This document shows positions 23,262 to 57,033 of a stretch of 64,000 nucleotides of DNA, piece by piece (the stretch's first letter is position 1; every line of letters begins with the position of its first letter). The stretch comes from Elainellaceae cyanobacterium (GTDB taxonomy: Bacteria > Cyanobacteriota > Cyanobacteriia > CAKZMO01): positions 669 through 64,668 of the forward strand of contig JBARXP010000099.1 of NCBI GenBank assembly GCA_049647405.1, in the 5' to 3' direction. The notes below the pieces were generated by a model, which was not told where the DNA came from, ran no database searches, and saw only the letters and a list, made by a program, of their open reading frames with translations. Both the position numbers and the translations under genes were made by a program.

Positions 23262-25430
23262 ATGGCACCAGAGTTTATCACTCCACTCGCTCAGGGTCGG
23301 CGAACCCTAGCTGCAATCGTTATTACCGATGGCGTGGGATTCAGTGCCCGTATGTCTACGGACGAAGAGCTGACCCTGGGCCTCATTCATCGTGATTTGC
23401 AGATGATGACGCAGATCTGTGAGCCCGAAGGAGGCCAGGTACTCAAGTCTACGGGCGATGGGCTATTGATGTGTTTTGCTAGTGCTGCCCAGGCGATGAG
23501 TTGCGCGATCGCCATTCAGCAGCAGTTTGCCGAACTCTCGGCTCATCGGCAGCCACAAGATGTGCTGATGCATCGCATCGGAGTGCATCTTGGTGATGTT
23601 TTCTTGAGCGAATCTGATGTCATGGGAAATGGTGTCAATATTGCGGCTCGACTCCAAACTCAGGCAGAACCCGGTGGCATCTGTCTCTCCCAAACCGTCT
23701 ACGACGTGGTCAAGTCGCAGCTATCGCTCAAGGCTCGATTTATGGGAGCGCTGCATCTAAAAAATATTCAGGAACCCGTTCCGGCTTACCACATGATGCC
23801 AGCGGGCGATCGCCCAGATGAACCTGGTTCTGAACAAAATACTGACCCGTCAGGCCAAGTCGATTCCTCAATTGAGCCAGCGACACAAGCTGTCCAACCC
23901 GCTGTCCAGCCAGCCGTCCAACCGTCCGAGTCAGCCAGCTCATCCGATTCAAGAGGGTTTTCCGTCACCCGCATGGATGAGAACGGGAGCCCCGCTCTCC
24001 CCGAGGTCAAAGCTTTTCTCCAGCAGGAAGTGATTTCTACCGGGGAGCTGATTCACGATCGCTACCGGATTCAGACCTCGCTTGGGCAAGGCGGTTTTGG
24101 TCGAACCTACCTCGCCAAAGACATTCATCGCTTTGACGATTTGTGCGTGCTAAAAGAATTTATGCCGCTCAACACCTCCGATTATGTGGTAGAAAAGGCA
24201 CGCACATTGTTTGAGCGAGAGGCGAAGGCGCTTTATCAGCTCAACCATCCGCAGATTCCGAAGTTTCTTGCCTGGTTTACCTATGCCAGTCGGCTGTTTA
24301 TCGTGCAGGAATATGTCAATGGGTCGTCCTATTCACGATTGCTGCAAACTCGATTGCAGAAGGGATGTACGTTTTCTGAGGCAGAAGTGCTGCAGTGGCT
24401 CTACGACTTGCTGATGGTACTCGACTATCTCCATAACCAGGGCATCGTTCATCGCGATATCTCAACCGACAATGTGATGCAGCCAGACAATTCGCCCAAA
24501 CCTGTACTGATCGACTTTGGTCTAGTCAAGCAAACGGTCTCAGACGTGTTGGCGCAATCTTCTAGTCAATCGTCTCAGAGTGGGGAAATGTCTAAGCGGT
24601 CGTTTGTCGGCAAGCTGGGCTATGCGCCGCCCGAACAAATCCGCATGGGGCAGTGTTTTCCATCGAGCGACTTATATGCTCTTGCCGTGACGGCATTAGT
24701 GCTACTGACAGGCCAACAGCCCAATCTGTTAATCAATCCTCATTCTTTAGAGTGGGACTGGCGATCGCACATCACAGTCAGCGATACCTTTGCCCAGTTA
24801 ATCACCCGCATGTTGGCCGAGCGACCGAGCGATCGCTATCCCACCGCCGCCGCCGCGCTGTGTGCCATCCATGATTCTCCTCTAATTCAGCAGATCACCC
24901 TACGCCCGGTCGAAACTCAAATTCAGTCTCAGGCTTGTGCAACAGAACAGGCAGCTCTCAGCCAAAATATTCAAGATATTCCCCCCGTTTCCGCAGCAAG
25001 TTTTCTGAATCCAGAGTTTTTAGAAACGTGCCGAACAGCATTAATCCAGTGCATTGGCCCAATGGCGAATTATCTCTTGGTCGATCTCCAGGGAAACCAT
25101 CCCAACGTTAGCCCCGAACGGTTTGTGCAGCTACTGGTGCAAGAGATTCCCAACACGCATCAGGCCGAGCAGTTTCAGACGGTCATGGAAGATACGTTGA
25201 GACTTGCTTCCCAACGTTCAACAGCCAAGACCAGCATAGATTCTGAGTTTATCAAGCGCTGTCAACGCGAGTTGGCTCAGTGCATCGGCCCCATGGCTAG
25301 CTTCATCCTCGATGATGTGATGGTGCAGATGAAGCCGACTACGCCCCAAGAGCTAATTCAGGCGATCGCCATCGAAATCCCTGATCCCAAAAAAGCAAAA
25401 GAATTTGAAGCCGCTATGCGATCGGTTTAG
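23262..25430 (+). CDS. multidomain signalling protein: class III adenylate/guanylate cyclase domain + Ser/Thr protein kinase domain + two C-terminal repeats of about 65 aa
   Basis: The CHD domain carries the metal Asp residues (ITDGVGFS, GDGLLMCF), K...D and the N/R pair (GNGVNIAARL). The kinase domain has GQGGFG, VLKE, HRDISTDN, DFG and APE motifs. The C-terminus holds two homologous modules (…CRTALIQCIGPMANYLL… and …CQRELAQCIGPMASFIL…). Confidence 0.8.
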   Translation: MAPEFITPLAQGRRTLAAIVITDGVGFSARMSTDEELTLGLIHRDLQMMTQICEPEGGQVLKSTGDGLLMCFASAAQAMSCAIAIQQQFAELSAHRQPQDVLMHRIGVHLGDVFLSESDVMGNGVNIAARLQTQAEPGGICLSQTVYDVVKSQLSLKARFMGALHLKNIQEPVPAYHMMPAGDRPDEPGSEQNTDPSGQVDSSIEPATQAVQPAVQPAVQPSESASSSDSRGFSVTRMDENGSPALPEVKAFLQQEVISTGELIHDRYRIQTSLGQGGFGRTYLAKDIHRFDDLCVLKEFMPLNTSDYVVEKARTLFEREAKALYQLNHPQIPKFLAWFTYASRLFIVQEYVNGSSYSRLLQTRLQKGCTFSEAEVLQWLYDLLMVLDYLHNQGIVHRDISTDNVMQPDNSPKPVLIDFGLVKQTVSDVLAQSSSQSSQSGEMSKRSFVGKLGYAPPEQIRMGQCFPSSDLYALAVTALVLLTGQQPNLLINPHSLEWDWRSHITVSDTFAQLITRMLAERPSDRYPTAAAALCAIHDSPLIQQITLRPVETQIQSQACATEQAALSQNIQDIPPVSAASFLNPEFLETCRTALIQCIGPMANYLLVDLQGNHPNVSPERFVQLLVQEIPNTHQAEQFQTVMEDTLRLASQRSTAKTSIDSEFIKRCQRELAQCIGPMASFILDDVMVQMKPTTPQELIQAIAIEIPDPKKAKEFEAAMRSV

Positions 25431-26389: not shown

Positions 26390-28468
26390 GTGAGCGATCG
26401 CCCCTTTCTAGATCTTGAGAGCCACTGGGCCAAAGACTGCGTCATGGCCTTAGCCGAGCGTAACCTAATTCAGGGCTATGACGACCAAACGTTTCGCCCT
26501 GAGCAACCCATCACTCGCGCTGAATTTTCTGCTCTGCTCAAGCGCGTGTTTCCTGCTTTTGAGGCGGTGCGTTCGGCTGCTGAATTTCTCGATGTGCCTG
26601 AATCTCACTGGGCATTTGACCCCGTCACTTGGGCTGTCGAGCGAGGCTTTTTTGCAGGCTACCCCGACGATACCTTTCATCCTGATGAATTATTGGCGCG
26701 ATCGCCCGCCTTGGCCGTGCTCAGCAGCGGCTTGAAACTGGGAGAAACGGAGCGCGTCGATCAGATTCTTGCCGCTTACTTTGATGATGAAGCCCAAATC
26801 GAGCTAATGTTTCGACAGGCGATCGCCACAGCAACCCTCAACCAGCTAGTGGTGAATGTGCCCGACGTGCGCAAACTTCGCCCCCTAGACGAAGTGACGA
26901 GGGCCGAAGTGGCCGCGTTCATCGCTCAGGCATTAGACCTGCCCGGTGTACCGCCTCAATTTATAGTCTGGAGTCTGCAACTGTCTGACTTGCCTGAAGA
27001 TGCGGCGATTCCGTTTGAGGAACTGCGATCGCACTCTGTCTTAACTCGTCAGATTCAACTGGAGCTAACCCGACTCGGCCTGTATGTCGGTAGTAGTCAA
27101 ATCGATGGTCTCTATGGAGGCCGTACTGAGGTTGCGCTGCTTCAGTTTATCGAAGAGGTGAAGCTGCCCAATGGTGAAACACGCCTTCTCGATCGGGCAC
27201 TGGCAAAAGCGCTGATCAAAGCCACAGCAGATGACTTTAAGCTGGTAGCTGCCCGTAAACGTCAGCAGGTTTTTCAAGACTATTACGCCCAAGAAGCCGG
27301 ATTGAGTGCCCATTTGCTGGCTTTTCTCGACCGGGGCTATGGGCGATCGCCCTATGTCAACGAAATCAATGCCTTTCCCGACCGACTCAAAGAAATTCCG
27401 AACGGTCAAGATTTGGTCGCCCCCGACCTAGATCAGCTCACCGCGTTTCCCAACGTCGGCAAAGTACCCACCATTGACGAAACGGGGCTAAGTTTTCTGC
27501 ATTCTGACATCAAGCAAGCCTGTGTTTGTCTGCTGAGCAATGACGATGGCGTGCGATCGCGCTGGCTCGGGCGCAATGCCCTGAAAAATGTGGAATGCTG
27601 GAGCACCACAAAAATTCTCACGATTCTCAATGTGGCCTGTCAGGCCAACGCAGCCGACCCATCGATTGATCTCGACACCTGCAAAATCCGGGTAAAGGGA
27701 CACCCTGGCGGTTACGGATTTCACGACATCGTTCGCGATATTTTTACCTACGAATCTCGCATCGCCTCATCCAATTCTCTGGCTTACATGCTGAAACAGT
27801 TTCAGACGCCGCTCCAGCTTGACTCGTGGGTTAAAGACATCACCGGAAATCGGCATCTCAGCTTTCAAGGTCGGTATGGTGAGCCTGCTTTTATGACGAC
27901 TCCCGAACTGTGGGATGAACGCGCTCGGAAGGTGATTTTGGCAGGCAATCCCAACGAGCATCTCTCAGGCAACTCGGTTTCGCTCTACGACCTGACTCGC
28001 ACGATCACTATGCTGGGCTGGCATCATCATCTCACCCGCGAAACTCGTCTCCCCGGTGCCCAGTGGGATACGTTGGAAGGGCTGGTTCGGGCTTTTGCCA
28101 CCGACAAAGCTCGTTATTTAGATGCGGCGATCGCCCGTCTGGGGCTAGACTCAGTGATTCGCTCTCCCGTGATTATTTCCAAACTGGGGGATGGTCGCAG
28201 CTCCATCCGCGATCGCGCCGAAATCGTCTACGTTGCCTTCTGTCAGTTTGTCGATAAGCGTCCCAAAGCCGAAGGCAAACCGCCCAAACAGCGGGCGATC
28301 GCCCTGGGTCTGCTATCAGCCATCGACTTTGGCGGTGACTATGATCGCGAAGCAACCCACCTCGACGCCCGCATGGCGGCAGAAGTGACCGAGATTCTGC
28401 GGCGTGTGGTGACCGATGACTGGCTCAGCCAAGCCTCTCAGACCATTCGATTTGGCATGGGGCGATAG
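26390..28468 (+). CDS. SLH-domain / peptidoglycan-binding-domain protein with large uncharacterised C-terminal domain
   Basis: Three N-terminal SLH-like repeats (HWA...GY.D.TFRP...ITRAE), then a PG_binding_1-like segment (LTRLGLYVGSSQIDGLYGGRTEVALLQF), then about 400 aa of unknown function. The start is a GTG with no recognisable signal peptide. Confidence 0.65.
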   Translation: MSDRPFLDLESHWAKDCVMALAERNLIQGYDDQTFRPEQPITRAEFSALLKRVFPAFEAVRSAAEFLDVPESHWAFDPVTWAVERGFFAGYPDDTFHPDELLARSPALAVLSSGLKLGETERVDQILAAYFDDEAQIELMFRQAIATATLNQLVVNVPDVRKLRPLDEVTRAEVAAFIAQALDLPGVPPQFIVWSLQLSDLPEDAAIPFEELRSHSVLTRQIQLELTRLGLYVGSSQIDGLYGGRTEVALLQFIEEVKLPNGETRLLDRALAKALIKATADDFKLVAARKRQQVFQDYYAQEAGLSAHLLAFLDRGYGRSPYVNEINAFPDRLKEIPNGQDLVAPDLDQLTAFPNVGKVPTIDETGLSFLHSDIKQACVCLLSNDDGVRSRWLGRNALKNVECWSTTKILTILNVACQANAADPSIDLDTCKIRVKGHPGGYGFHDIVRDIFTYESRIASSNSLAYMLKQFQTPLQLDSWVKDITGNRHLSFQGRYGEPAFMTTPELWDERARKVILAGNPNEHLSGNSVSLYDLTRTITMLGWHHHLTRETRLPGAQWDTLEGLVRAFATDKARYLDAAIARLGLDSVIRSPVIISKLGDGRSSIRDRAEIVYVAFCQFVDKRPKAEGKPPKQRAIALGLLSAIDFGGDYDREATHLDARMAAEVTEILRRVVTDDWLSQASQTIRFGMGR

Positions 28469-31153: not shown

Positions 31154-31522
31154 GTGACGATCACAAAAGAACAAATGGCTGTCTATCGAGCGTCTGCTCA
31201 GCAACGGCAACGGCAACAGCTAGAGCATTCGCGTCAACGTTATCAATTGGGCATGACCGTTGTTCAACAAGCGACTGAACTGCTCAAACAAGAATTTCGA
31301 GTGAAAAAAGTGGTCTTGTTTGGTTCTATGCGATCGCCCAATAGAGTTCACGAACGCTCTGATGTAGACCTTGCTGTTTGGGGACTTAACCCAAAACACT
31401 ACTATCGGGCCGTAGGCCAACTTCAAGGACTCCATCCTGACATTTCGGTAGATCTCATTGAAGCTGAATCAGCCTCGCCGCAGATGCTGAGAGAGATTGA
31501 GACAATTGGAATTGTGTTATGA
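31154..31522 (+). CDS. minimal nucleotidyltransferase (MNT; type VII antitoxin-like)
   Basis: Contains the GS...DVDL nucleotidyltransferase motif (VVLFGSMRSPNRVHERSDVDLAVWG). It overlaps the downstream HEPN gene by 4 bp (ATGA). Confidence 0.7.
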   Translation: MTITKEQMAVYRASAQQRQRQQLEHSRQRYQLGMTVVQQATELLKQEFRVKKVVLFGSMRSPNRVHERSDVDLAVWGLNPKHYYRAVGQLQGLHPDISVDLIEAESASPQMLREIETIGIVL

Positions 31523-32007
31523 GTCAGAATGCCATTAGTCTTGCTGTTCGCATTCGCGCAGAGTTAGCTGATATTGATCAAGTCGTTGAACGAACGCAGC
31601 GATTGCTAGCAAAAGCAATCGAACGTAATGATGACGACTATTATGATGGTGTTGCCCTTAATCTCCATAGCTTTTACACAGCGACTGAGCGCATTTTAGA
31701 AGAAATTGCCCGAGAAATTGATGCTGCTATCCCTACAGGCCCTGAGTGGCATCGAGATTTGCTATTGCAAATGTCAGCAGAATTTCCAAAGGTTCGCCCG
31801 CCTGTGCTGCAACGAACATCTCGACGTTGTTTAGATGAGTATAGAGGGTTGCGTCATGTGATTCGGAATGTATATACGTTTGACTTGAAGCCGACTCGTT
31901 TACGAGAGTTAGTTAGCATGATGCCCGAATGTCATGCTTCTCTGGTAAAAGACATAACAGATTTTTGCGCCTTCCTCGAAGCTTTAGGGCAATCCGAAAT
32001 ATCGTAA
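31519..32007 (+). CDS. HEPN-domain protein (HepT/HI0074-like toxin partner of the MNT)
   Basis: 162 aa, translationally coupled to the upstream MNT. Contains a R-x4-H-x-I-R-N-x-Y-like HEPN signature (RGLRHVIRNVY). Confidence 0.55.
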   Translation: MSQNAISLAVRIRAELADIDQVVERTQRLLAKAIERNDDDYYDGVALNLHSFYTATERILEEIAREIDAAIPTGPEWHRDLLLQMSAEFPKVRPPVLQRTSRRCLDEYRGLRHVIRNVYTFDLKPTRLRELVSMMPECHASLVKDITDFCAFLEALGQSEIS

Positions 32008-32052
32008 GCGATCGCCTCTTGCTGAGAAGAGGGGCGATCGCTTTTGTTTTGG
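32007..32052 (+). terminator. rho-independent terminator after the MNT-HEPN operon
   Basis: A 13-14 bp near-perfect stem (agcgatcgcctctt / aagaggggcgatcgct) is followed by TTTGTTTTGG. Confidence 0.5.
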
Positions 32053-32161
32053 AGAGAGGGGTTGAATGTAGTCTGTATCGCCTTCTCTGCCAGTCAAATA
32101 AAATGAAGAGGTCTGGCTCAAGATTCAGTTATCTTGATATCAATAACAACCGTTTTGCTAC

Positions 32162-32401
32162 TTGCGGCGTATGAGTACTTTTGAGCAAATCCTGGATGGG
32201 GTAGCTGATTTACCCCTTGATCAGCAAGAACTTCTCATTGAGATCGTGAAGCATCGCACGACTGCTGCACGTCGTCAGGAACTGGCGAAAACCTCTCAAG
32301 AAGCATTAGCTGAATACCGAACAGGACAGCTTCAGCCTCAGACTTCACAAGAGGCGATCGCTGAATTACGGGCATATTTGGAGAGCACTGAAGACGAATG
32401 A
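32162..32401 (+). CDS. putative addiction-module (antitoxin-like) small protein, orphan
   Basis: About 75 aa, helical and acidic at the C-terminus. It resembles small cyanobacterial addiction-module component families. No toxin gene lies adjacent. Confidence 0.3.
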   Translation: MRRMSTFEQILDGVADLPLDQQELLIEIVKHRTTAARRQELAKTSQEALAEYRTGQLQPQTSQEAIAELRAYLESTEDE

Positions 32402-32539
32402 GAAAGCTCGTTCTCACCTCTCGACTCAAGCGATCGCCCTTTTTGTGAAGTGGATAAAGTAACACAATTTAGCTAATTAATTTGTAGAATAAAAGCATTG
32501 ACTAAATGGTATAAATTAATTGAATTTTAAAAATTAATT

Positions 32540-33265
32540 ATGGCAAAAAGAAAACCTAAACCGGGTAAATGCGTACATTGTCTTAAGACATTCGAGAATC
32601 TAACTTGGGATCATGTATTTCCACAAGCTTGGTACCCAACTACAACCAAGCCAGACGAATATAAATGGCAGGTTCCAAGTTGTCAGGATTGTAATAGAGA
32701 GTATGGCAACTTAGAAAATGACTTTCTGACTCGTATATCAATTTTCTTAGAACCCTCTGACTTAGCTTGCGCAGGCATCTTTGAAAAAGGAATGCGAGCG
32801 CTTGACCCTAAATATGCAAAAAACAATAAAGATAAAAAATTTCGAAAAGCTAAAAAAGAGAAAATTCTAAGAGAACTTTGGGTGGGAGAGGAAATTCCTC
32901 AAAAGCATCTTTATCCAAATTTTGGTTTGTCTTCCCACCTCCCTATAGAAGAACAGGTTGCAGTTCCAATCAGATCAGACTCAGTACAGCGTATAGCGGA
33001 AAAAATTGTCCGAGGAATTTTTTACATTGAAGATCATCTCTTGATAGAACCTCCGTATAAGATAGAGAGCTATGTATTGAGTGACAAAGGTTATCAACGA
33101 GTGATAGATGCTGCAAAGAGATTTGGCTCTGTTTATAAAAGGGAACCTGGAATCACAGTATTTCGAGCAGTTGTTCCGGAATGTTCACCTAGCTCACTAT
33201 TTGCTATCGAAATATGGAAGCGATGGAAAGTCTATGCGACTGTTTTAGTTTCTGACGTCACTTAA
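32540..33265 (+). CDS. HNH-endonuclease-domain protein with uncharacterised C-terminal domain
   Basis: The N-terminus reads CVHC...WDHVFP...CQDCN, matching the HNH zinc-finger/His-Asn-His arrangement. The gene sits in a markedly AT-rich patch. Confidence 0.55.
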   Translation: MAKRKPKPGKCVHCLKTFENLTWDHVFPQAWYPTTTKPDEYKWQVPSCQDCNREYGNLENDFLTRISIFLEPSDLACAGIFEKGMRALDPKYAKNNKDKKFRKAKKEKILRELWVGEEIPQKHLYPNFGLSSHLPIEEQVAVPIRSDSVQRIAEKIVRGIFYIEDHLLIEPPYKIESYVLSDKGYQRVIDAAKRFGSVYKREPGITVFRAVVPECSPSSLFAIEIWKRWKVYATVLVSDVT

Positions 33266-33487
33266 TACTACTTTCTTTGGATAGAATTAGCGAGCTTTAT
33301 CTAAAGTTTAACAATGCAAAAGTGGCAAAAATTTAAGAACGATTTATAAACTTTTATCGATTGGAGATGCTTGGAAACTTAAGTGTTAGTTGACGTAGCT
33401 AATTTCTCTTTTTAGTCCATATCAACGAAGGTCTGAGTTGGCAGTTAGGATAGAGCCAGAATTTTGCCGCTAGTACGAGTAAGAAAA

Positions 33488-34330
33488 ATGAGTAGATTTC
33501 TTATAATTGATACGTGCGTGTGGATCGCACTTGCAGGAGAACCCAAGCTTTATAGCCTGATTGAAACTCTAGATGAAGCTCTCCAAACGACTGATTTTAT
33601 CCTAATACTTCCTGAATCGGTCAAGCTTGAATTTGATCGCCACAGAAACACTATAAACTCAACTTGGAAAAATAAGTGTAAAGGATTAATTCGTCAGATT
33701 ATGCAGGTCAAAAACCATTTCCCTAATCATGCACAAGAAATTTCAGTTATTCACAACCTTCTTCAAAATACGTTGGCAGTAAGCGGCGCAAATATTGAGG
33801 ATAATTTGAAATTAGTTGATCAAATTTTCTTGCAAGCTACAGTAATAGACAATTGCTCCGATCAAATGTTTGCAGAAGCTGCTAAGAGAGTTTTTCAACG
33901 CATGCCTCCTGCTCTAAAGCCTGAGGGCAGCAGTATAGGCGATTGTTTACTTTGGCTATCTATATTAGAACTGTTGAAAACCGGAGAAGTATGGTTTTGT
34001 ACAGATAACAAACATGACTTTTCTCGTCGTAATGCTGAAAACTTACCATTTGAAGATCTAGATATGGAGGCTTTCAGTATTAATAAGAAAGGTATGTTTA
34101 ATTACTTTATTGATCCAAATAAGTTCATTAAACAAATCTCTCCTGTTTCTAGAGACTTACCTCGCTATTCAGACTATGTAGAGAAAGATTCATGGATGAA
34201 ACCAATAACTTGTCCTAGTTGCGAAGCAGTAGCAGCCTTTCCACACCTTTACAGCACAGGTTACAGATATATTTGCGCGAATTGTGGAAGTGCTTCATCT
34301 TTTTTACCTGCTGACGATCCACTTTTATAG
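33488..34330 (+). CDS. PIN-like nuclease-fold protein with C-terminal CxxC...CxxC zinc ribbon
   Basis: FLIIDTCVWIAL opens a PIN-like fold, with further acidic positions at IGDCLLW and FCTDNKHDF. The C-terminus carries CPSCE...CANCG. AT-rich. Start set at the MSRFLIID ATG. Confidence 0.5.
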   Translation: MSRFLIIDTCVWIALAGEPKLYSLIETLDEALQTTDFILILPESVKLEFDRHRNTINSTWKNKCKGLIRQIMQVKNHFPNHAQEISVIHNLLQNTLAVSGANIEDNLKLVDQIFLQATVIDNCSDQMFAEAAKRVFQRMPPALKPEGSSIGDCLLWLSILELLKTGEVWFCTDNKHDFSRRNAENLPFEDLDMEAFSINKKGMFNYFIDPNKFIKQISPVSRDLPRYSDYVEKDSWMKPITCPSCEAVAAFPHLYSTGYRYICANCGSASSFLPADDPLL

Positions 34331-52150: not shown

Positions 52151-55100
52151 CTAAAGCCCATTGCCAATCAGGATAAAAGGAGCCCAATAATAAGGATGGG
52201 CTAAATCGCTGCCTTGGGAGAGCGATCGCCCTATTTGCAGGTTAGTGCTTTCAATTTCGACACCTCTTGCTCCCTCTAGGATCGTTGCGTTATTTGTGAT
52301 GAGAGCAATCTGGGCACGTTGGAGAGCTTCGGCTTTTGTATAACCATTATTGAGTGCGGCATAGAATGCATCCATCAACACCTGAGTTCCGCCATCGCTC
52401 ACCTGCCACAGCGAGGCGATCGCCGCATCAGCTCCAGCCAACTGCATCAAATAGCCAAATCCTAAAATCTCTTCTCCATTGCCGAGGGGCACATCGCCAA
52501 CCGCCGTTTCACAGGCACTTAACACTACTAACTCTACATTGGGAAACGTCCAATCTTTAATGTCCGTAAGGGTTGCACGACTACCATCACCAAACAAAAT
52601 GAACGAGTTTTCCGGTGGCCCTGGATTAAAGGTGGCGTGGGTCGCTAGATGAATCACGTTGAAGTCGTTCATGTCGTAGATGATATCAACGTTGAAGTCG
52701 GCATTCGTTCGAGTTTCGGTACCGGGAATAAGCTGGACTAAGTTTTCAACTTCTCGGCCAGCAAACGTCAACCCGACGAATGAAAGAGTGCGATCGCCAA
52801 TTTGAACTTGATACTGACCTTCAGTAAACGCAGCGGCTAAGACGCTCAACTCTCCGCGAAATGGCTGACTATCCAGGTCGTCTAAACTCGCGGCTGTAAT
52901 ATTGTTGATCTGAAATTGTTCAACCAACCATTGATTGCCATCGTGAAGAGCCGCCAGGGGAATGTAGCGCAGCTGACGATCAGGAGCATAGATGATGACC
53001 TCTGCATCGGCTTGGGCTAAATCATCAATAATTGGACGAATCAGCCAATCATAGAGTTGCTGAGCTTGCGGAATCGCAGTTTGGCTCGGAGTCCGTAGGG
53101 CAGAACGAAAGTTGGCGATCGCCTGATTGAGGGTCAGTCTATCAATGGCAAATGTACGCCGAATAGGAGGAGCATTGGCCGTGACCAAAATCAGCTCGAT
53201 GCGATCGTCTAACACTAATGGGTATAAAATCACCGCATTTTGGCTCAGAGCTTGCAGATTATTTTGTAAGTCGTTCAGCTCCTCTAGCTCTAGGTTGGCG
53301 GCTCCTGTGATTTGGCGCAGTTGGGCAATCAGCATTTGAATTTCGTCAGACTCAAAAAAGTTGCGAAAGGTCTGTCGAGCATCTTGCTGAAGCTGACGCA
53401 GTTGTCGCACCCGTGCAACTTGGTCAGACGTGCGATCGAGGCGATCAATTTGCTCTAGACCCCGTAGTTCTCGCCCCAGGGCGACCACCCTATTCGACCG
53501 CTCCTGAAACTGGTCAAGGAGACGCTGTTCTTCATCTCGCAGGGCAATACCAGACTCGGTTTCCGCACTACGCTCTACACCTTGAAGATAGTCGTCTAGC
53601 TCCTGCACCTTCAGCAAATCAAGCACTCGCTGGGCTTCTAAGATTCGATCTTCTTGCAGTAGCAAATCGGCAAGCTGTCGGTAGGTAGCGGCAACGGTAT
53701 CTGTGTAGGTTTGCTGAACGTCAAACGGAAGAGTTCTCAGTTCTTGGCGAATCGATTCGGTTAAGTTCACGGCCTGTTTGTAAAATACGATCGCCAGTTC
53801 GATTTCACTCTGCTGAGCAAACATATCGCCCAATCGACTCAAAATGAATCGCTCTCCGTCTCGATTTCCAGACTCTTGAAAGAGGCCAAGCGCAAGTTGA
53901 AAAGCTTCTAACGCCTGTTCAGGTTGAGAAAGAGCACTGTAGCTCACACCCAGATTTGTCAGTGCAGAAGCCTCTCCAATGGGATTGCCAATGTCGCGAT
54001 AGATATCGAGAGATTGTTGTGATGCGCTCACAGCTTCTGAAAAATTGCCAATATCAATAGATAGCGCGCCAATGCCGTTTAGGGTGGCAGCTTCTCCTGC
54101 GCGATCGCCAATGTCTCGACGTAGCTCTAGCGATCGCTCAAAAGCAGTGATTGCTTCACTTGCGTTGCCCTGAATGTTGTGGATGAGGGCAATGTTGTAA
54201 AGGGTGCCCCCCATACCGGGGCGATCGCCAATGTCTTGTCGTATGGTGAGAGCTTGCTGATAGTAGTCAAGCGCTTGATCGAACTGTCCGAGGGCGTAAT
54301 GCAATCCCCCTATGCTATTGAGAATACCTGCTTCCTCTGAGCGGGCACCAAGGGCTTGAAAAATTTGAAGCGACTGCTGGAAGAAACTTAGAGATTCAAC
54401 GTAATTTCCTATGCTGAAATTGACAGTGGCAAGCCTTGACAAAGAATAAGCCTCTCCGCGACGATCGCCAATATCCTGTTGAATTTCGAGCGCTTCTTGA
54501 CAATACTCAAGTGCTGTCGCGTAGTTTCCTAAGTTCCAATGAGCTGATCCCAAACTTACCAAACTCGATGCCTCATCAATCAGGTTACCAATCGATTGAT
54601 GAACATCTAAAGCAGCTTCTAATCTTTCGAGAGCGGCTTGATAGTTACCTCGATTAATCTCAATTAGACCTAAATTAATCAAAATACGCCCAAGCTCTGC
54701 TTGATTTCCAAGATCTTGAGCAACAGCTAATGCGTTTCGAAGAAATTCTTGTGCTTGCGTATAATCGCCAATATTGATGTAGGTAGTTCCAATACTACTG
54801 AGAATACGAGCTTCGACGAGGCGATCGTTAGTTTCTTGACTCATTGAGAGTGCTTGAAGGTTATATCGAATCGACTCTGAGTAATCACCGTAGAGTGTAT
54901 AGATGATTCCAATATTATTAAGAATTCGATCTTTCAGTGCAGATAAATAAGCTGAATCAGATTGAACAAGATTTAGAGCTTGCTGATGAAAGTCTAATGC
55001 TGTTTCATATTGTCCTTGTCTTCGGTAAACGACACCGATGTCGTCAAGAATCTTAGCTGTAATAGAGAGGTTTTCTATATTCAGGCTTAATTCTAAAGCC

Positions 55101-55573
55101 TGCTGATATTGCTCCAAAGCTAAGTTAAAATCACTCAAATTATAAGCAATTATCCCAGACTCATTAAGGCTACGGCTAAGGAGATCAAGATCACCAAAGT
55201 TTTCACTAATGGCGATCGCTCTATCAATATAGTTCTCTGCTTTATCAAAGCAACCAAGAATTCGAGCAGTTACAGCAGCACTATGCAAGAGATGACCGAT
55301 GGCTAATGAGCTATCGTCCATACTATATAACAGTGCTTCTTCATAGACAGAAAGTGCCTCCTGGAACTGATTAGATTGAAATAAATCATTTCCTTCTCTG
55401 AATAGTCTAAGAGTTGCAGTTGTTTCTTCCTGTTCACTCGTTTGTGATATAAGGAACCCGTGCTCATTAAGCTTCATAGCTAGCACAGCGGAATCCGAAC
55501 ATAATAGAATTGATAAGGCAGAGCAAAAGACTGTAGCTATTCTTTTATGAAATATTAGTTCTGAAATAAACAT
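52151..55573 (-). CDS. TPR-repeat protein with C-terminal CHAT (caspase-like) protease domain, signal peptide
   Basis: About 20 TPR units; the C-terminus carries a His...Cys dyad (IHLATHA ... VLSACETA). Hydrophobic N-terminal leader. Confidence 0.85.
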   Translation of the reverse strand: MFISELIFHKRIATVFCSALSILLCSDSAVLAMKLNEHGFLISQTSEQEETTATLRLFREGNDLFQSNQFQEALSVYEEALLYSMDDSSLAIGHLLHSAAVTARILGCFDKAENYIDRAIAISENFGDLDLLSRSLNESGIIAYNLSDFNLALEQYQQALELSLNIENLSITAKILDDIGVVYRRQGQYETALDFHQQALNLVQSDSAYLSALKDRILNNIGIIYTLYGDYSESIRYNLQALSMSQETNDRLVEARILSSIGTTYINIGDYTQAQEFLRNALAVAQDLGNQAELGRILINLGLIEINRGNYQAALERLEAALDVHQSIGNLIDEASSLVSLGSAHWNLGNYATALEYCQEALEIQQDIGDRRGEAYSLSRLATVNFSIGNYVESLSFFQQSLQIFQALGARSEEAGILNSIGGLHYALGQFDQALDYYQQALTIRQDIGDRPGMGGTLYNIALIHNIQGNASEAITAFERSLELRRDIGDRAGEAATLNGIGALSIDIGNFSEAVSASQQSLDIYRDIGNPIGEASALTNLGVSYSALSQPEQALEAFQLALGLFQESGNRDGERFILSRLGDMFAQQSEIELAIVFYKQAVNLTESIRQELRTLPFDVQQTYTDTVAATYRQLADLLLQEDRILEAQRVLDLLKVQELDDYLQGVERSAETESGIALRDEEQRLLDQFQERSNRVVALGRELRGLEQIDRLDRTSDQVARVRQLRQLQQDARQTFRNFFESDEIQMLIAQLRQITGAANLELEELNDLQNNLQALSQNAVILYPLVLDDRIELILVTANAPPIRRTFAIDRLTLNQAIANFRSALRTPSQTAIPQAQQLYDWLIRPIIDDLAQADAEVIIYAPDRQLRYIPLAALHDGNQWLVEQFQINNITAASLDDLDSQPFRGELSVLAAAFTEGQYQVQIGDRTLSFVGLTFAGREVENLVQLIPGTETRTNADFNVDIIYDMNDFNVIHLATHATFNPGPPENSFILFGDGSRATLTDIKDWTFPNVELVVLSACETAVGDVPLGNGEEILGFGYLMQLAGADAAIASLWQVSDGGTQVLMDAFYAALNNGYTKAEALQRAQIALITNNATILEGARGVEIESTNLQIGRSLSQGSDLAHPYYWAPFILIGNGL

Positions 55574-55719
55574 GTCTAAAGTAAACTATTTAAGCAAGTA
55601 AATTGGCCACATAACTTTATCTTTAGCTGTACTAATTTATATTGGTGTTGAGTTAATTCATGAATTAATTATAGCCAGCTCAGACTATTCTACTAAAAAA
55701 TAGTTGTCTCTTTACGAAA

Positions 55720-57033
55720 TCAACGTGTTCCTCTTCCTTCTGTTCTACCAGGTAGTCCTATGTCAGGTGGGCTATAACCAGACCTACCACCATTACGTAT
55801 TGGTAGATTATCTTCATCTTCACTCGACATAATTTCCAATGGCTCGAACTCCGAATCATTAGGAGTGTTTTCTTCTTCATAAAATATGGTTCCAGTTCCA
55901 TAAGAATTGAAACTAGAAAGCCTAGACCAGTAACCAATGAAGCTCTCTTCTCGGATTGATTCAAGACCTACAGATATCAGCAGTGCTTGAAGATCTTCTA
56001 TAGCGATAAAGCTACTAGAAGATCTCTGACTCAACTTGAAAAAGGCAGCAAGAGAATCATACCAAATTCCCTCTTCAGCATACGTGTAAGGCTGATCTAT
56101 GATTGAAGTCTCTATTTCTTGCAAGTCATATGGCAATGGCTCTAATCTTTGAATCCAGCCATTTGTGTAGTGACTTGAACTCCAATCTTCCACTCCAGCA
56201 ACCCAAAATATCCAGTAATACGTTTTGCCGATTTCAAGAGCAGGTAAATCCTCTATCCCTTCTAAGTCAACACCTAGAACTCCAGTCTCTTCTGGATAAG
56301 GTTGGGTTAACTTATAAAGGAATCTACCTTGCTCATCCCAAAGTCCAAATTGAATCGTTAGGTCGCCAAATAGTTCTACGTTGATTATCTCTTCTGTAAG
56401 AGAAACAAAAATTGTAGGTTTAGGTGAGAGCGTATAACCATGATTTGTCTCTGGTGGAACCAATGCCGTCACTAATGGCAAATCCTCTTGTGGTGGATCA
56501 ACTTGTGTCCCGTCGTCTTCGCTGTCACTTGCAATGCCACCCGACTCTCCTGAACCCGGCATAAGAATATCTGGTGGCTGAAACGTAGGTAAACTAAAAG
56601 AAACATGGCGGTCTGGCAGCGTAGATGAAGCCTCTGCAAGAGTAGAAGAAGGCGAGGCAGATAACGACTGTCCCTCAGTCTGTCTAAGAGTGAGCGCCTG
56701 CTGAAAAAATTCCAAAGCCTGCTCATGCTGATTCAGACTTAGATAAATATTGCCAATTTGGTTGAGAGTATCGGCTTGTCCCTGGCGATCGCCCCTTTCC
56801 TCATAAACTCTCAACGCTGCCTCAAACTTTTCTAGCGCTACTTCAAGCTGTTCGGCTTGCCTCAGCTCCATACCTTCTTGAAACAGGCGATCGCCCTCTG
56901 CCTCTTGCGCTTCATCTGGAATAGCTTGGGCGATCGCTTCATTTGCCATCGCCATCGCAACTCCCGATACAAGAGCAGGAATAAGCAGCAGTGAACCGAC
57001 ACTCATCAGAAGCCGACACATTGATGGGTTCAT
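55720..57033 (-). CDS. secreted TPR-repeat protein with uncharacterised C-terminal domain (possibly DUF928-like)
   Basis: Signal-peptide-like N-terminus (LLMSVGSLLLIPALVSGVAMA), three TPRs, a Ser/Asp-rich linker and a roughly 200-aa C-terminal domain. Start set at the MNPSMCRLL ATG. Confidence 0.55.
   Translation of the reverse strand: MNPSMCRLLMSVGSLLLIPALVSGVAMAMANEAIAQAIPDEAQEAEGDRLFQEGMELRQAEQLEVALEKFEAALRVYEERGDRQGQADTLNQIGNIYLSLNQHEQALEFFQQALTLRQTEGQSLSASPSSTLAEASSTLPDRHVSFSLPTFQPPDILMPGSGESGGIASDSEDDGTQVDPPQEDLPLVTALVPPETNHGYTLSPKPTIFVSLTEEIINVELFGDLTIQFGLWDEQGRFLYKLTQPYPEETGVLGVDLEGIEDLPALEIGKTYYWIFWVAGVEDWSSSHYTNGWIQRLEPLPYDLQEIETSIIDQPYTYAEEGIWYDSLAAFFKLSQRSSSSFIAIEDLQALLISVGLESIREESFIGYWSRLSSFNSYGTGTIFYEEENTPNDSEFEPLEIMSSEDEDNLPIRNGGRSGYSPPDIGLPGRTEGRGTR

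What the first reader, a model, noticed from the sequence alone, without database searches (positions are those of the whole stretch)
23262..25430. Nucleotide cyclase + Ser/Thr kinase fusion with duplicated C-terminal module of about 65 aa
The cyclase domain retains the catalytic residues and the kinase domain retains nearly all its catalytic motifs; in the kinase, the catalytic-loop Lys is replaced by Ser (HRDISTDN). Two tandem homologous C-terminal modules (…CIGPMANYLL… and …CIGPMASFIL…) follow a low-complexity AVQP repeat.

This couples cAMP or cGMP production to protein phosphorylation in one polypeptide. The duplicated C-terminal module is unrecognised.
Basis: seen in the sequence. Interest (0 to 1): 0.5.

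Follow-up and report, generated by a model that had tools for sequence, protein, structure and literature searches.

The report
Sensor-less cyclase-kinase with STAC-like docking tail
This cyanobacterial gene encodes a soluble enzyme that probably makes cAMP and phosphorylates proteins, and its duplicated, previously unexplained tail looks like a small "STAC" plug that in most relatives sits next to a haem-containing membrane sensor with no output of its own, which suggests how such output-less sensors pass on their signal.

Summary
ORF 23262-25430(+) encodes 722 aa: a class III cyclase with all six catalytic residues (the K62/D119 pair predicts ATP as substrate), a Hanks-type Ser/Thr kinase whose catalytic-loop Lys is Ser, and two homologous ~65-aa C-terminal modules. 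It is not a chimera: more than 100 cyanobacterial orthologues share the layout, and the closest one shares the gene order.

The Ser loop is a family trait (121/121). The AVQP repeat lies between cyclase and kinase, not next to the modules.

In 55 of 69 related loci the gene lies tail-to-tail with a ~310-aa receptor (TM, haem-c Cache, TM, HAMP) that has no output domain, which parallels Af1503/Af1502. Kinase-only and cyclase-only proteins carrying the module keep this neighbour.

Best model: the module docks the sensor-less enzyme onto a HAMP-only receptor. The window itself has no receptor gene. The docking is inferred, not shown.

The parts
23262..25430 (+). Whole ORF, 722 aa plus stop: cyclase, linker, Ser/Thr kinase, two DUF8082/STAC-like modules. 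Soluble, with no transmembrane segment.
   Evidence: The AlphaFold model shows four folded units: mean pLDDT 81.5, pTM 0.52.
23307..23801 (+). Class III nucleotidyl cyclase catalytic domain (aa ~16-180). D23/D66 bind metal, K62/D119 specify adenine, N126/R130 stabilise the transition state. Predicted adenylate cyclase.
   Evidence: Pfam PF00211 35.4 bits. Nearest solved structures are 3mr7 (E 3e-29) and Ma1120. Residues conserved in >=119/121.
23814..24020 (+). Disordered low-complexity linker (aa ~185-253) containing the AVQP x3 repeat (12-bp x3 tandem at 23888-23923).
   Evidence: pLDDT <50 over aa 185-253. TRF row 23888-23923. The linker varies among homologues.
24045..24896 (+). Hanks-type Ser/Thr protein kinase domain (aa ~262-545). 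All catalytic motifs are present except the catalytic-loop Lys.
   Evidence: Pfam PF00069 125.6 bits. Nearest solved structures are StkP and PknB. Motifs 121/121.
24450..24473 (+). Catalytic loop HRDISTDN (aa 397-404), with Ser401 in place of the canonical Lys.
   Evidence: Sequence. S401 is 121/121 in the family. 17 of 22 other module-bearing kinases also have HRD[IV]S.
24600..24602 (+). Ser447 in the activation loop. This position is always Ser or Thr in the family, so it is a candidate phospho-acceptor.
   Evidence: T 81 / S 40 of 121. The role is an inference from the analogous PknB activation-loop threonines (own knowledge).
24993..25217 (+). C-terminal module 1 (aa ~578-652): DUF8082/STAC-like four-helix bundle. 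IGPMA (aa 598-602, nt 25053-25067) joins helices 1 and 2.
25224..25427 (+). C-terminal module 2 (aa 655-722): second DUF8082/STAC-like bundle, ending at the C-terminus. IGPMA at aa 675-679 (nt 25284-25298).
   Evidence: In 143/148 module-bearing representatives the last module ends within 15 aa of the C-terminus.

Best explanation
The gene encodes a soluble signalling enzyme with no input domain of its own. It has an N-terminal class III adenylate cyclase, a Hanks-type Ser/Thr kinase with an unusual but family-invariant Ser in the catalytic loop, and two copies of a ~65-aa four-helix module (Pfam DUF8082) that is most likely a relative of the STAC domain typified by Af1502.

Proposed mechanism: the STAC-like tail is the input port. 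It docks the enzyme onto a separately encoded, dimeric membrane receptor made of TM, haem-c Cache (Tll0287-like), TM and HAMP, with no output domain. Changes at the extracytoplasmic haem (NO or another gas, or redox state), perhaps helped by a PhnD-type binding protein, are passed through the HAMP domain and the docked modules. This would alter the dimer geometry of the cyclase (an obligate dimer) and the kinase, and so set cAMP synthesis and Ser/Thr phosphorylation.

Shown here by computation: domain content, residue conservation, the module's predicted fold, and the gene adjacency in relatives. Inferred: homology to STAC, physical docking, the signal sensed, and both enzyme activities. In this window's lineage the receptor gene is not adjacent and would have to lie elsewhere in the genome.
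For: Domains and residues.

Module resembles STAC:
- The predicted four-helix, two-hairpin bundle has (I/L)GPxA in the h1-h2 connector. Af1502/STAC is described the same way, with an LGPx(x)A motif (PMC4834066).
- Af1502 is the top hit of the first module profile against PDB sequences.
- hhalign between the module profile and the Af1502 family gives pairwise E 2e-4 and 47% probability.
- Pfam's own DUF8082 model hits Af1502 orthologues as their only family: 'weak' (E <= 1e-3) for P0270 and 'faint' for P0274.

Context:
- In 55 of 69 genome loci with enough flank, a ~305-315-aa Tll0287-like + HAMP gene lies convergently downstream, at a median gap of 88 bp. No other neighbour family except the PhnD-like gene (36 of 80 loci; 35 of 72 with enough upstream flank) occurs in more than 16 loci.
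- The receptor's best PDB sequence match is the Af1503 HAMP domain.
- Kinase + module proteins without a cyclase keep the receptor. So do cyclase + module proteins without a kinase. The module is the only shared part.
- The Af1503 (HAMP-only)/Af1502 gene pair was re-observed here.
- Non-kinase module carriers are also sensor-less catalytic cores.
- In CbrA the STAC domain docks onto its partner domain (PMC13022988).
- A receptor with the same TM-sCache_haem-TM-HAMP design binds NO (PMC12889525).
Against: - The window has no receptor or PhnD-like gene, and neither does the 78%-identical orthologue's locus.
- The receptor and enzyme genes are convergent, not co-transcribed.
- From the receptor side only 26 of 52 loci have a module-bearing neighbour.
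- Histidine-kinase and caspase carriers of the module showed no adjacent receptor, though only one locus of each was checked.
- Sequence support for STAC homology is individually weak: profile E-values are 0.74-1.2 and RuvA domain III scores as well. Foldseek is not significant (E 3.9, TM 0.55-0.58). hhalign aligns only 24 columns. Small four-helix bundles are common.
- Cyclase-only and kinase-only forms may be domain-loss derivatives that inherited the synteny.
- No physical interaction was tested.
- The Ser-for-Lys change could lower or alter kinase activity.
Confidence: 0.55

Rival explanations
1. The module is a general self-association or scaffold-targeting tail, comparable to small helical adaptor domains. 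It clusters or localises diverse effectors (kinase, cyclase, histidine kinase, caspase, TIR) and does not contact the HAMP receptor. On this view the receptor adjacency reflects only a shared pathway or co-regulation.
For: The module occurs at the C-terminus of very different effectors, including Peptidase_C14, CHAT, TIR, pentapeptide and HisKA_3 proteins. It comes in 1-5 copies. The caspase and histidine-kinase carriers examined had no adjacent receptor. The genes are convergent rather than in an operon.
Against: Af1502 is monomeric in solution (PMC4834066). The receptor adjacency persists across three architectures whose only common part is the module. The Af1503/Af1502 pairing is an independent archaeal parallel.
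Confidence: 0.2
2. The kinase domain is a regulatory pseudokinase, like the kinase-homology domain of animal receptor guanylyl cyclases. It binds ATP and gates the cyclase, so cAMP is the only real output.
For: The catalytic-loop Lys, which contacts the gamma-phosphate in canonical kinases (own knowledge of PKA K168), is replaced by Ser in all 121 members. Kinase-like and cyclase domains are combined in known receptor cyclases (PMC1262709).
Against: Every other catalytic residue is invariant: K298, E320, D399, N404, DFG and PPE, plus an always-Ser/Thr activation-loop position. Related kinase + module proteins have no cyclase to regulate. RIO and Bud32 kinases work with Ser/Thr at this loop position (own knowledge; weak RIO1 and Bud32 profile hits).
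Confidence: 0.12
3. The module is itself a sensor, for example a redox or metal sensor that uses its conserved cysteines, so the protein needs no partner receptor.
For: The first Cys of the module is conserved in at least 90% of copies (C590 115/121, C667 112/112), and a second Cys seven residues later is common. The window has no receptor gene.
Against: Counting back four residues from the aligned Leu in the Af1502 family alignment, the equivalent position is a Leu, which suggests a buried core residue rather than a ligand. A 65-aa helical bundle has little room for a pocket. This model does not explain the receptor adjacency.
Confidence: 0.08
4. It is an anti-phage defence kinase of the PD-T4-6 / MADS6 type.
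For: PADLOC PD-T4-6 models score up to 257 bits over the kinase domain. The NCBIfam MADS6 model scores 118 bits. The module also occurs with caspase, CHAT and TIR domains.
Against: The NCBIfam score is far below its cut-off (118 vs 460). The PADLOC PD-T4-6 models match only the generic kinase domain. The gene lies among core genes (rpoB/C, hisD). It occurs in at least 80 species-level genomes of related cyanobacteria, consistent with an orthologous chromosomal gene. Its conserved neighbours are sensory proteins, not defence genes.
Confidence: 0.03

Closest known systems
Af1503 / Af1502 of Archaeoglobus fulgidus (HAMP-only receptor plus stand-alone STAC protein; Korycinski et al. 2015; PDB 5a1q)
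   Different: Here the STAC-like unit is not stand-alone. It is duplicated and fused to the C-terminus of enzymes (cyclase and/or kinase). The receptor has a haem-c Cache sensor. The genes are convergent rather than translationally coupled. The organisms are cyanobacteria. The window's own locus lacks the receptor.
CbrA / CrbS / RpuS SLC5-STAC-histidine kinases
   Same: A small STAC four-helix bundle links a membrane protein to a cytoplasmic signalling enzyme. In CbrA it docks onto the membrane domain, and deleting it weakens signalling.
   Different: In those proteins STAC is internal, present once, covalently joined to both partners, and associated with SLC5 transporters and two-component kinases. 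Here it is terminal, tandem, on a soluble protein, and associated with Ser/Thr kinase and cyclase outputs. Direct profile comparison with CbrA-type STAC could not be done.
Kinase-cyclase fusions: Myxococcus Pkn2, TOMM kinase/cyclase (TIGR03903), animal receptor guanylyl cyclases
   Same: A protein-kinase-like domain and a class III cyclase domain lie in one polypeptide.
   Different: Those have the kinase or kinase-homology domain first and the cyclase after it, with transmembrane, AAA or TPR parts. This protein has the cyclase first, apparently intact catalytic sites in both domains, no membrane segment, and the STAC-like tail. TIGR03903 scores 91 bits against a cut-off of 706.
Minimal class III cyclases (3mr7 from a structural-genomics project; Ma1120 of Mycobacterium avium)
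   Same: Compact ~170-aa cyclase domain with the same catalytic signature. 3mr7 matches at E 3e-29.
   Different: Those are stand-alone or fused to other partners. None carries a kinase or the module.
TM-sCache_haem-TM-HAMP nitric-oxide sensor of Pseudomonas azotoformans (preprint PMC12889525)
   Same: It has the same architecture as the receptor encoded next to most family members: Tll0287-like domain with CxxCH, two TM helices and HAMP only.
   Different: It is a different phylum, no partner or output is described there, and NO binding by the cyanobacterial receptors is untested.

Membership tests
Class III nucleotidyl cyclase (Pfam PF00211) | Profile match above the curated threshold | tested here: met
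   35.4 bits vs cut-off 21.9, aa 18-167. 3mr7 matches at E 3e-29.
Class III nucleotidyl cyclase (Pfam PF00211) | Two metal-binding Asp, plus the transition-state Asn (four residues before Arg) and Arg | tested here: met
   D23, D66, N126 and R130 are in canonical spacing, each conserved in >=119/121.
Class III nucleotidyl cyclase (Pfam PF00211) | Substrate-specifying pair: Lys/Asp for ATP, Glu/Cys-type for GTP | tested here: met
   K62 (121/121) and D119 (120/121) predict an adenylate cyclase. The specificity rule is cited in PMC1262709.
Class III nucleotidyl cyclase (Pfam PF00211) | Catalytically active head-to-tail dimer that produces cAMP | not testable with these tools
   Needs an enzyme assay or a multimer model.
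Hanks-type Ser/Thr protein kinase (Pfam PF00069) | Gly-rich loop, VAIK Lys, alphaC Glu, HRD Asp, catalytic-loop Asn, DFG, APE | tested here: met
   GQGGFG, K298, E320, D399, N404, DFG 418-420 and PPE 456-458. All are 121/121 except P457 (114/121). Pfam 125.6 bits.
Hanks-type Ser/Thr protein kinase (Pfam PF00069) | Catalytic-loop Lys (HRDxKxxN) | tested here: not met
   Ser401 (HRDISTDN). Ser is found in 121/121 family members. The aligned StkP has HRDLKPQN.
Pfam PF26309 (DUF8082) | Match to the Pfam model | tested here: inconclusive
   The model is absent from the local Pfam copy, so the window protein could not be scored directly. The 78%-identical orthologue P0001 and all 120 listed homologues carry PF26309, which is unmarked (E <= 1e-5) and listed last, i.e. 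C-terminal. The window's modules align with theirs. Membership is very likely, but rests on proxies.
STAC domain (Af1502 type) | 60-90-aa four-helix bundle made of two alpha-hairpins | tested here: met
   AlphaFold model with pLDDT 89.2 and helices 7-21, 25-35, 41-51 and 55-69. This is a prediction, not a solved structure.
STAC domain (Af1502 type) | [quoted passage not shown] | tested here: met
   IGPMA at aa 598-602 and 675-679. G, P and A are invariant in the 43-sequence module alignment. The motif sits in the h1-h2 connector of the model. Motif definition from PMC4834066.
STAC domain (Af1502 type) | Structural similarity to Af1502 (PDB 5a1q) | tested here: inconclusive
   [not shown]
STAC domain (Af1502 type) | Statistically significant sequence or profile similarity to STAC members | tested here: inconclusive
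   Module profiles vs Af1502 give E 0.74 and 1.2. hhalign gives 47% probability, pairwise E 2e-4, over 24 columns. Pfam DUF8082 hits Af1502 orthologues at 'weak' and 'faint' level. The STAC authors state that Af1502 is itself undetectable from other STACs by sequence.
STAC domain (Af1502 type) | Genomic coupling to an effector-less HAMP-only receptor, or fusion between SLC5 and two-component domains | tested here: met
   Met for the family: 55/69 loci have a Tll0287-like + HAMP-only gene next door, and so do cyclase-only and kinase-only module proteins. Not met for the window's own locus. No SLC5 association was seen.
STAC domain (CbrA type) | Profile similarity to STAC domains of SLC5-STAC kinases | not tested
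   I could not obtain CbrA, CrbS or RpuS STAC sequences. The attempts through the plasmid collection failed.
PD-T4-6 / MADS6 defence kinases | Full-length model match and a defence-island context | tested here: not met
   NCBIfam MADS6 scores 118 bits vs cut-off 460. PADLOC hits cover only the kinase domain. The context is core genes and sensory neighbours.

The most novel reading that the evidence does not exclude
DUF8082/STAC is a general plug that connects output-less HAMP receptors to separately encoded, sensor-less enzymes. Here it would link an extracytoplasmic haem-c (NO or redox) sensor to simultaneous cAMP synthesis and Ser/Thr phosphorylation. That would be a 'split receptor' design, and it would explain both what HAMP-only receptors such as Af1503 signal to and what STAC domains do. 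The same plug on histidine kinases, caspases and TIR proteins would mean many cyanobacterial effectors are wired this way.
Probability: 0.35. Interest if true: 0.8.

Novelty: new variant of a known kind. Interest (0 to 1): 0.62.

Why it matters
Two small puzzles in bacterial signalling are still open. What do receptors that end in a HAMP domain, such as Af1503, signal to? And what does the STAC domain do? Its role is described as elusive or unclear in 2021 and 2026 papers.

This family offers a testable answer in bacteria. A STAC-like tail is the only common part of cyclase, kinase and cyclase-kinase enzymes that sit beside one kind of HAMP-only haem receptor. If the tail docks to the receptor, a DUF gains a function, a recently described class of haem-c Cache (NO) sensors gains an output, and second-messenger and phosphorylation signalling are shown to be driven from one input.

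The always-Ser catalytic loop is a separate, cheap biochemical question about how a Hanks kinase works without its catalytic-loop lysine.

Tried and rejected
1. A word-indexed search with the C-terminal 155 aa alone found nothing. The whole-protein search was needed instead.
2. The local Pfam, NCBIfam and PADLOC libraries gave no hit on the module. Weak NGO1945_C and PXA hits in a few homologues were treated as noise.
3. A broader module profile (A5) did not improve the Af1502 E-value, and RuvA domain III scored equally. STAC homology cannot be claimed on sequence alone.
4. Foldseek against the PDB was not significant. The afdb50 library was unavailable.
5. Attempts to fetch CbrA/RpuS-type STAC sequences for a profile-profile test all failed. 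tblastn with E. coli ActP against plasmids found only transporters. A Vibrio hit was plain PutP. Two 50-kb stretches of pNGR234b did not contain rpuS and yielded only an unrelated NCS1-permease/histidine-kinase fusion.
6. Synteny with the window's own neighbours (tatD, hisD, creatininase, SLH, AAA) holds only in the closest relative, so these genes are not functional partners.
7. The defence-kinase reading was rejected (see rival explanations).
8. The chimera/assembly-error reading was rejected on the basis of more than 100 full-length orthologues and shared gene order.
9. Literature searches for 'DUF8082' and 'HRDISP' found nothing relevant.
Full report
**1. The observation**

The ORF is exactly where stated: 23262..25430 on the + strand, 722 aa, ATG start. 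Pfam places a class III cyclase domain at aa 18-167 (35.4 bits, cut-off 21.9) and a protein kinase domain at aa 268-527 (125.6 bits). The last ~200 aa match nothing in the local Pfam or NCBIfam.

The two C-terminal segments are truly homologous: 33% identity over 66 ungapped residues, pairwise E = 2e-17. The AVQP repeat exists as a 12-bp x3 tandem at 23888-23923. However, it lies at aa 207-221 in the disordered linker between cyclase and kinase, not next to the modules. The protein has no membrane-spanning segment.

**2. Not a chimera, and not a one-off**

A whole-protein search returned more than 100 cyanobacterial proteins at 39-78% identity with the same layout. A scan of species-representative genomes found 329 related stretches. 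The 80 kept all come from thin filamentous cyanobacteria (Leptolyngbya, Nodosilinea, Halomicronema, Elainellaceae, Phormidium tenue and others), including cultured strains.

The window's gene order is rpoC2-rpoC1-rpoB-tatD-...-hisD-[this gene]-creatininase-SLH protein-AAA ATPase. It matches the contigs of the 78%-identical orthologue. Assembly error is therefore excluded.

**3. The catalytic domains**

In a 121-sequence alignment the six canonical cyclase residues are nearly invariant: D23 119, K62 121, D66 120, D119 120, N126 119 and R130 119. They sit in the standard spacing when compared with the nearest solved cyclases, 3mr7 (E 3e-29) and Ma1120. The Lys/Asp pair predicts ATP as substrate, so cAMP rather than cGMP; the specificity rule is cited in PMC1262709.

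The kinase is an ordinary Hanks-type domain, closest to StkP and PknB. The Gly-rich loop, K298, E320, HRD, N404 and DFG are all 121/121, and PPE is 121/121 except P457 (114/121). The one departure is Ser401 in place of the catalytic-loop Lys, and this Ser is itself 121/121. It is also found in 17 of 22 other module-bearing kinases. It is therefore a selected feature of a subfamily and not decay.

Activation-loop position 447 is always Ser or Thr, which fits a phospho-acceptor. From my own knowledge, RIO and Bud32 kinases also carry Ser/Thr at this loop position and are active. This protein nonetheless has a full Hanks substrate-binding lobe. Whether activity is normal, reduced or altered cannot be decided here.

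**4. What the module is**

- Orthologues carry the precomputed Pfam family PF26309, named DUF8082, listed last along the protein. The model is newer than the local Pfam copy. No paper in the library mentions DUF8082.
- A profile of 43 diverse copies found 1,843 cluster representatives at E <= 1e-3 among 1.84 billion proteins.
- Among the best 148, the last module ends within 15 aa of the C-terminus in 143. Copy number is 1 (45 proteins), 2 (89), 3 (13) or 5 (1).
- Partner domains in 97 proteins scanned were Pkinase (39), pentapeptide repeats (8), HisKA_3 + HATPase_c (7), cyclase (7), caspase (5), CHAT (4), TIR (3) and FHA (2).
- The non-kinase carriers examined are bare catalytic cores that start at the N-terminus and have no input domain.

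**5. Link to STAC**

AlphaFold predicts a four-helix bundle of two hairpins (pLDDT 89.2), with IGPMA in the connector between helices 1 and 2. The published description of Af1502, the founding STAC domain, is a ~68-aa four-helix bundle of two alpha-hairpins with a conserved LGPx(x)A motif joining h1 and h2 (PMC4834066).

Evidence for the link:
- Af1502 is the top hit of the module profile against all PDB sequences, although at E 0.74.
- hhalign between the module profile and an alignment of six Af1502 orthologues gives 47% probability and pairwise E 2e-4, over 24 columns spanning the motif.
- Pfam's own DUF8082 model hits Af1502 orthologues as their only family: 'weak' (E <= 1e-3) for P0270 and 'faint' for P0274.

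Evidence against the link:
- Foldseek is not significant (E 3.9, TM 0.55-0.58).
- A broader profile does not improve the E-value, and RuvA domain III scores as well.
- I could not obtain CbrA-type STAC sequences for a cleaner test.

I rate homology to STAC at roughly 0.75-0.8. Each line of evidence is modest, but they are independent and they agree.

**6. The context that suggests a function**

Clustering the flanking ORFs of the 80 genome loci revealed one dominant neighbour, found in 57 loci. Of 69 loci with at least 1.1 kb downstream, 55 (80%) have it. It is always on the opposite strand, at a median gap of 88 bp, and sometimes overlaps the 3' end. It encodes a protein of ~305-315 aa.

Pfam identifies this neighbour as a Tll0287-like domain (133 bits, with a CxxCH haem-c motif) followed by HAMP (46 bits), and nothing else; hydrophobic stretches before and between these domains read as two TM helices. 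Its best PDB sequence match is the Af1503 HAMP domain. A PhnD-type periplasmic binding protein is encoded just upstream in 35 of 72 loci. No other neighbour family exceeds 16 loci.

The pairing includes the deepest relatives (46-53% identity), so it is probably ancestral. The window and its closest relative have lost the adjacency.

This is the same logic as Af1503, a HAMP-only receptor with no effector, encoded beside the STAC protein Af1502. I re-observed that pair directly.

**7. Does the pairing follow the module?**

- A kinase with three modules and no cyclase (P0122) has the receptor's HAMP end overlapping its 3' end (83 bits).
- Starting from the receptor, a metagenome scan gave 52 loci with usable downstream sequence. 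Of these, 26 have a convergent module-bearing gene. For the more divergent receptors that gene is a 405-530-aa kinase with one module and no cyclase.
- Two cyclase + module proteins with no kinase (P0175, P0174) also have the receptor immediately downstream, convergent. In one case the PhnD-like gene follows as well.
- The only part common to all three architectures is the module.
- One histidine-kinase carrier and one caspase carrier had no such neighbour, so the rule is not universal, or their partners lie elsewhere.

**8. Proposed mechanism**

The enzyme has no sensor of its own, and the receptor has no output. I propose that the STAC-like tail docks onto the receptor. In CbrA, cryo-EM shows the STAC bundle inserted into the cytoplasmic face of its membrane partner, and deleting it weakens signalling (PMC13022988 and PMC7096432).

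Receptors with HAMP domains are dimers, class III cyclases need to dimerise, and Hanks kinases are commonly activated by dimerisation (own knowledge). Docking, or a HAMP conformational switch, could therefore set both activities at once. The sensed signal is probably a gas or redox state: a Pseudomonas receptor with the same TM-sCache_haem-TM-HAMP design binds NO tightly (PMC12889525).

All of this paragraph is inference. For the window's own protein the receptor must be encoded outside the 64 kb.

**9. Comparison with known systems and novelty**

Known kinase-cyclase fusions (Pkn2, TOMM kinase/cyclase, receptor guanylyl cyclases) have the opposite domain order and different accessories. STAC has been described only as a stand-alone protein or between SLC5 transporters and two-component domains.

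I found no description of the following: a tandem, C-terminal STAC-like tail on Ser/Thr kinases and cyclases; its pairing with a haem-c HAMP-only receptor; or the equivalence of DUF8082 and STAC. I could not read the original STAC paper (J Mol Biol 2015), so an earlier mention there cannot be excluded.

The gene family itself is already in the databases, annotated simply as 'protein kinase'. I class the finding as a new variant of a known kind.

**10. Verdict**

The most interesting aspect was not visible from the window alone: the module's likely identity and role. Interest is 0.62. It is tempered because the docking model is untested and the receptor is missing from this locus.

Noticed in passing
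window 31519-34330 (GC 0.39 in 32001-34000): This is a low-GC stretch. It encodes a HepT-like (HEPN toxin) protein at 31519-32007, a 241-aa ORF with no Pfam hit at 32540-33265, and a PIN_12-domain protein at 33464-34330. It may be a small toxin-antitoxin or defence islet.
   Followed up: partly
window 54001-56000: A second GC dip (0.406) against a window average of about 0.50. Its content was not examined.
   Followed up: no
window 26390-28468 (+): A 692-aa protein with two N-terminal SLH repeats and about 600 aa with no Pfam match. It is conserved next to the creatininase gene in the closest relative.
   Followed up: partly
L158:5001-7175 and other HisKA_3 carriers (P0148, P0168, P0178, P0184): These are sensor-less HisKA_3 + HATPase_c histidine kinases that start at residue ~16-30 and end in DUF8082 modules. 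The one locus examined (P0148) lies next to a GerE-type response regulator. They look like two-component kinases whose only candidate input is the module.
   Followed up: partly
P0186, P0187, P0195, P0246 (L160:1019-3652): Caspase-family (Peptidase_C14) proteins of 750-880 aa end in DUF8082 modules. CHAT and TIR carriers also exist. The module may also regulate protease or cell-death-type effectors.
   Followed up: partly
[not shown]
   Followed up: no
L163:4946-5290 and one module-bearing protein: A Roadblock/LC7 protein is encoded two genes from Af1502 in Archaeoglobus, and one DUF8082 protein carries a Robl_LC7 domain. This is a possible recurring association.
   Followed up: no
L007:271-3663 (Sinorhizobium fredii pNGR234b): An 1130-aa ORF that, by my reading of the sequence only (no domain scan), looks like a fusion of an NCS1-like permease, a Cys-rich segment (CSICEH...CSLCCSLDSRCHDMCK), a histidine kinase and a receiver domain. 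It resembles a transporter-sensor fusion but has no STAC motif.
   Followed up: no
L159:2811-4832: A Mg-chelatase/VWA protein upstream of a cyclase + module gene carries the Pfam family 'AAPxQ' (PF26791). This short Pro/Gln repeat is reminiscent of the AVQP repeat in the window protein's linker.
   Followed up: no
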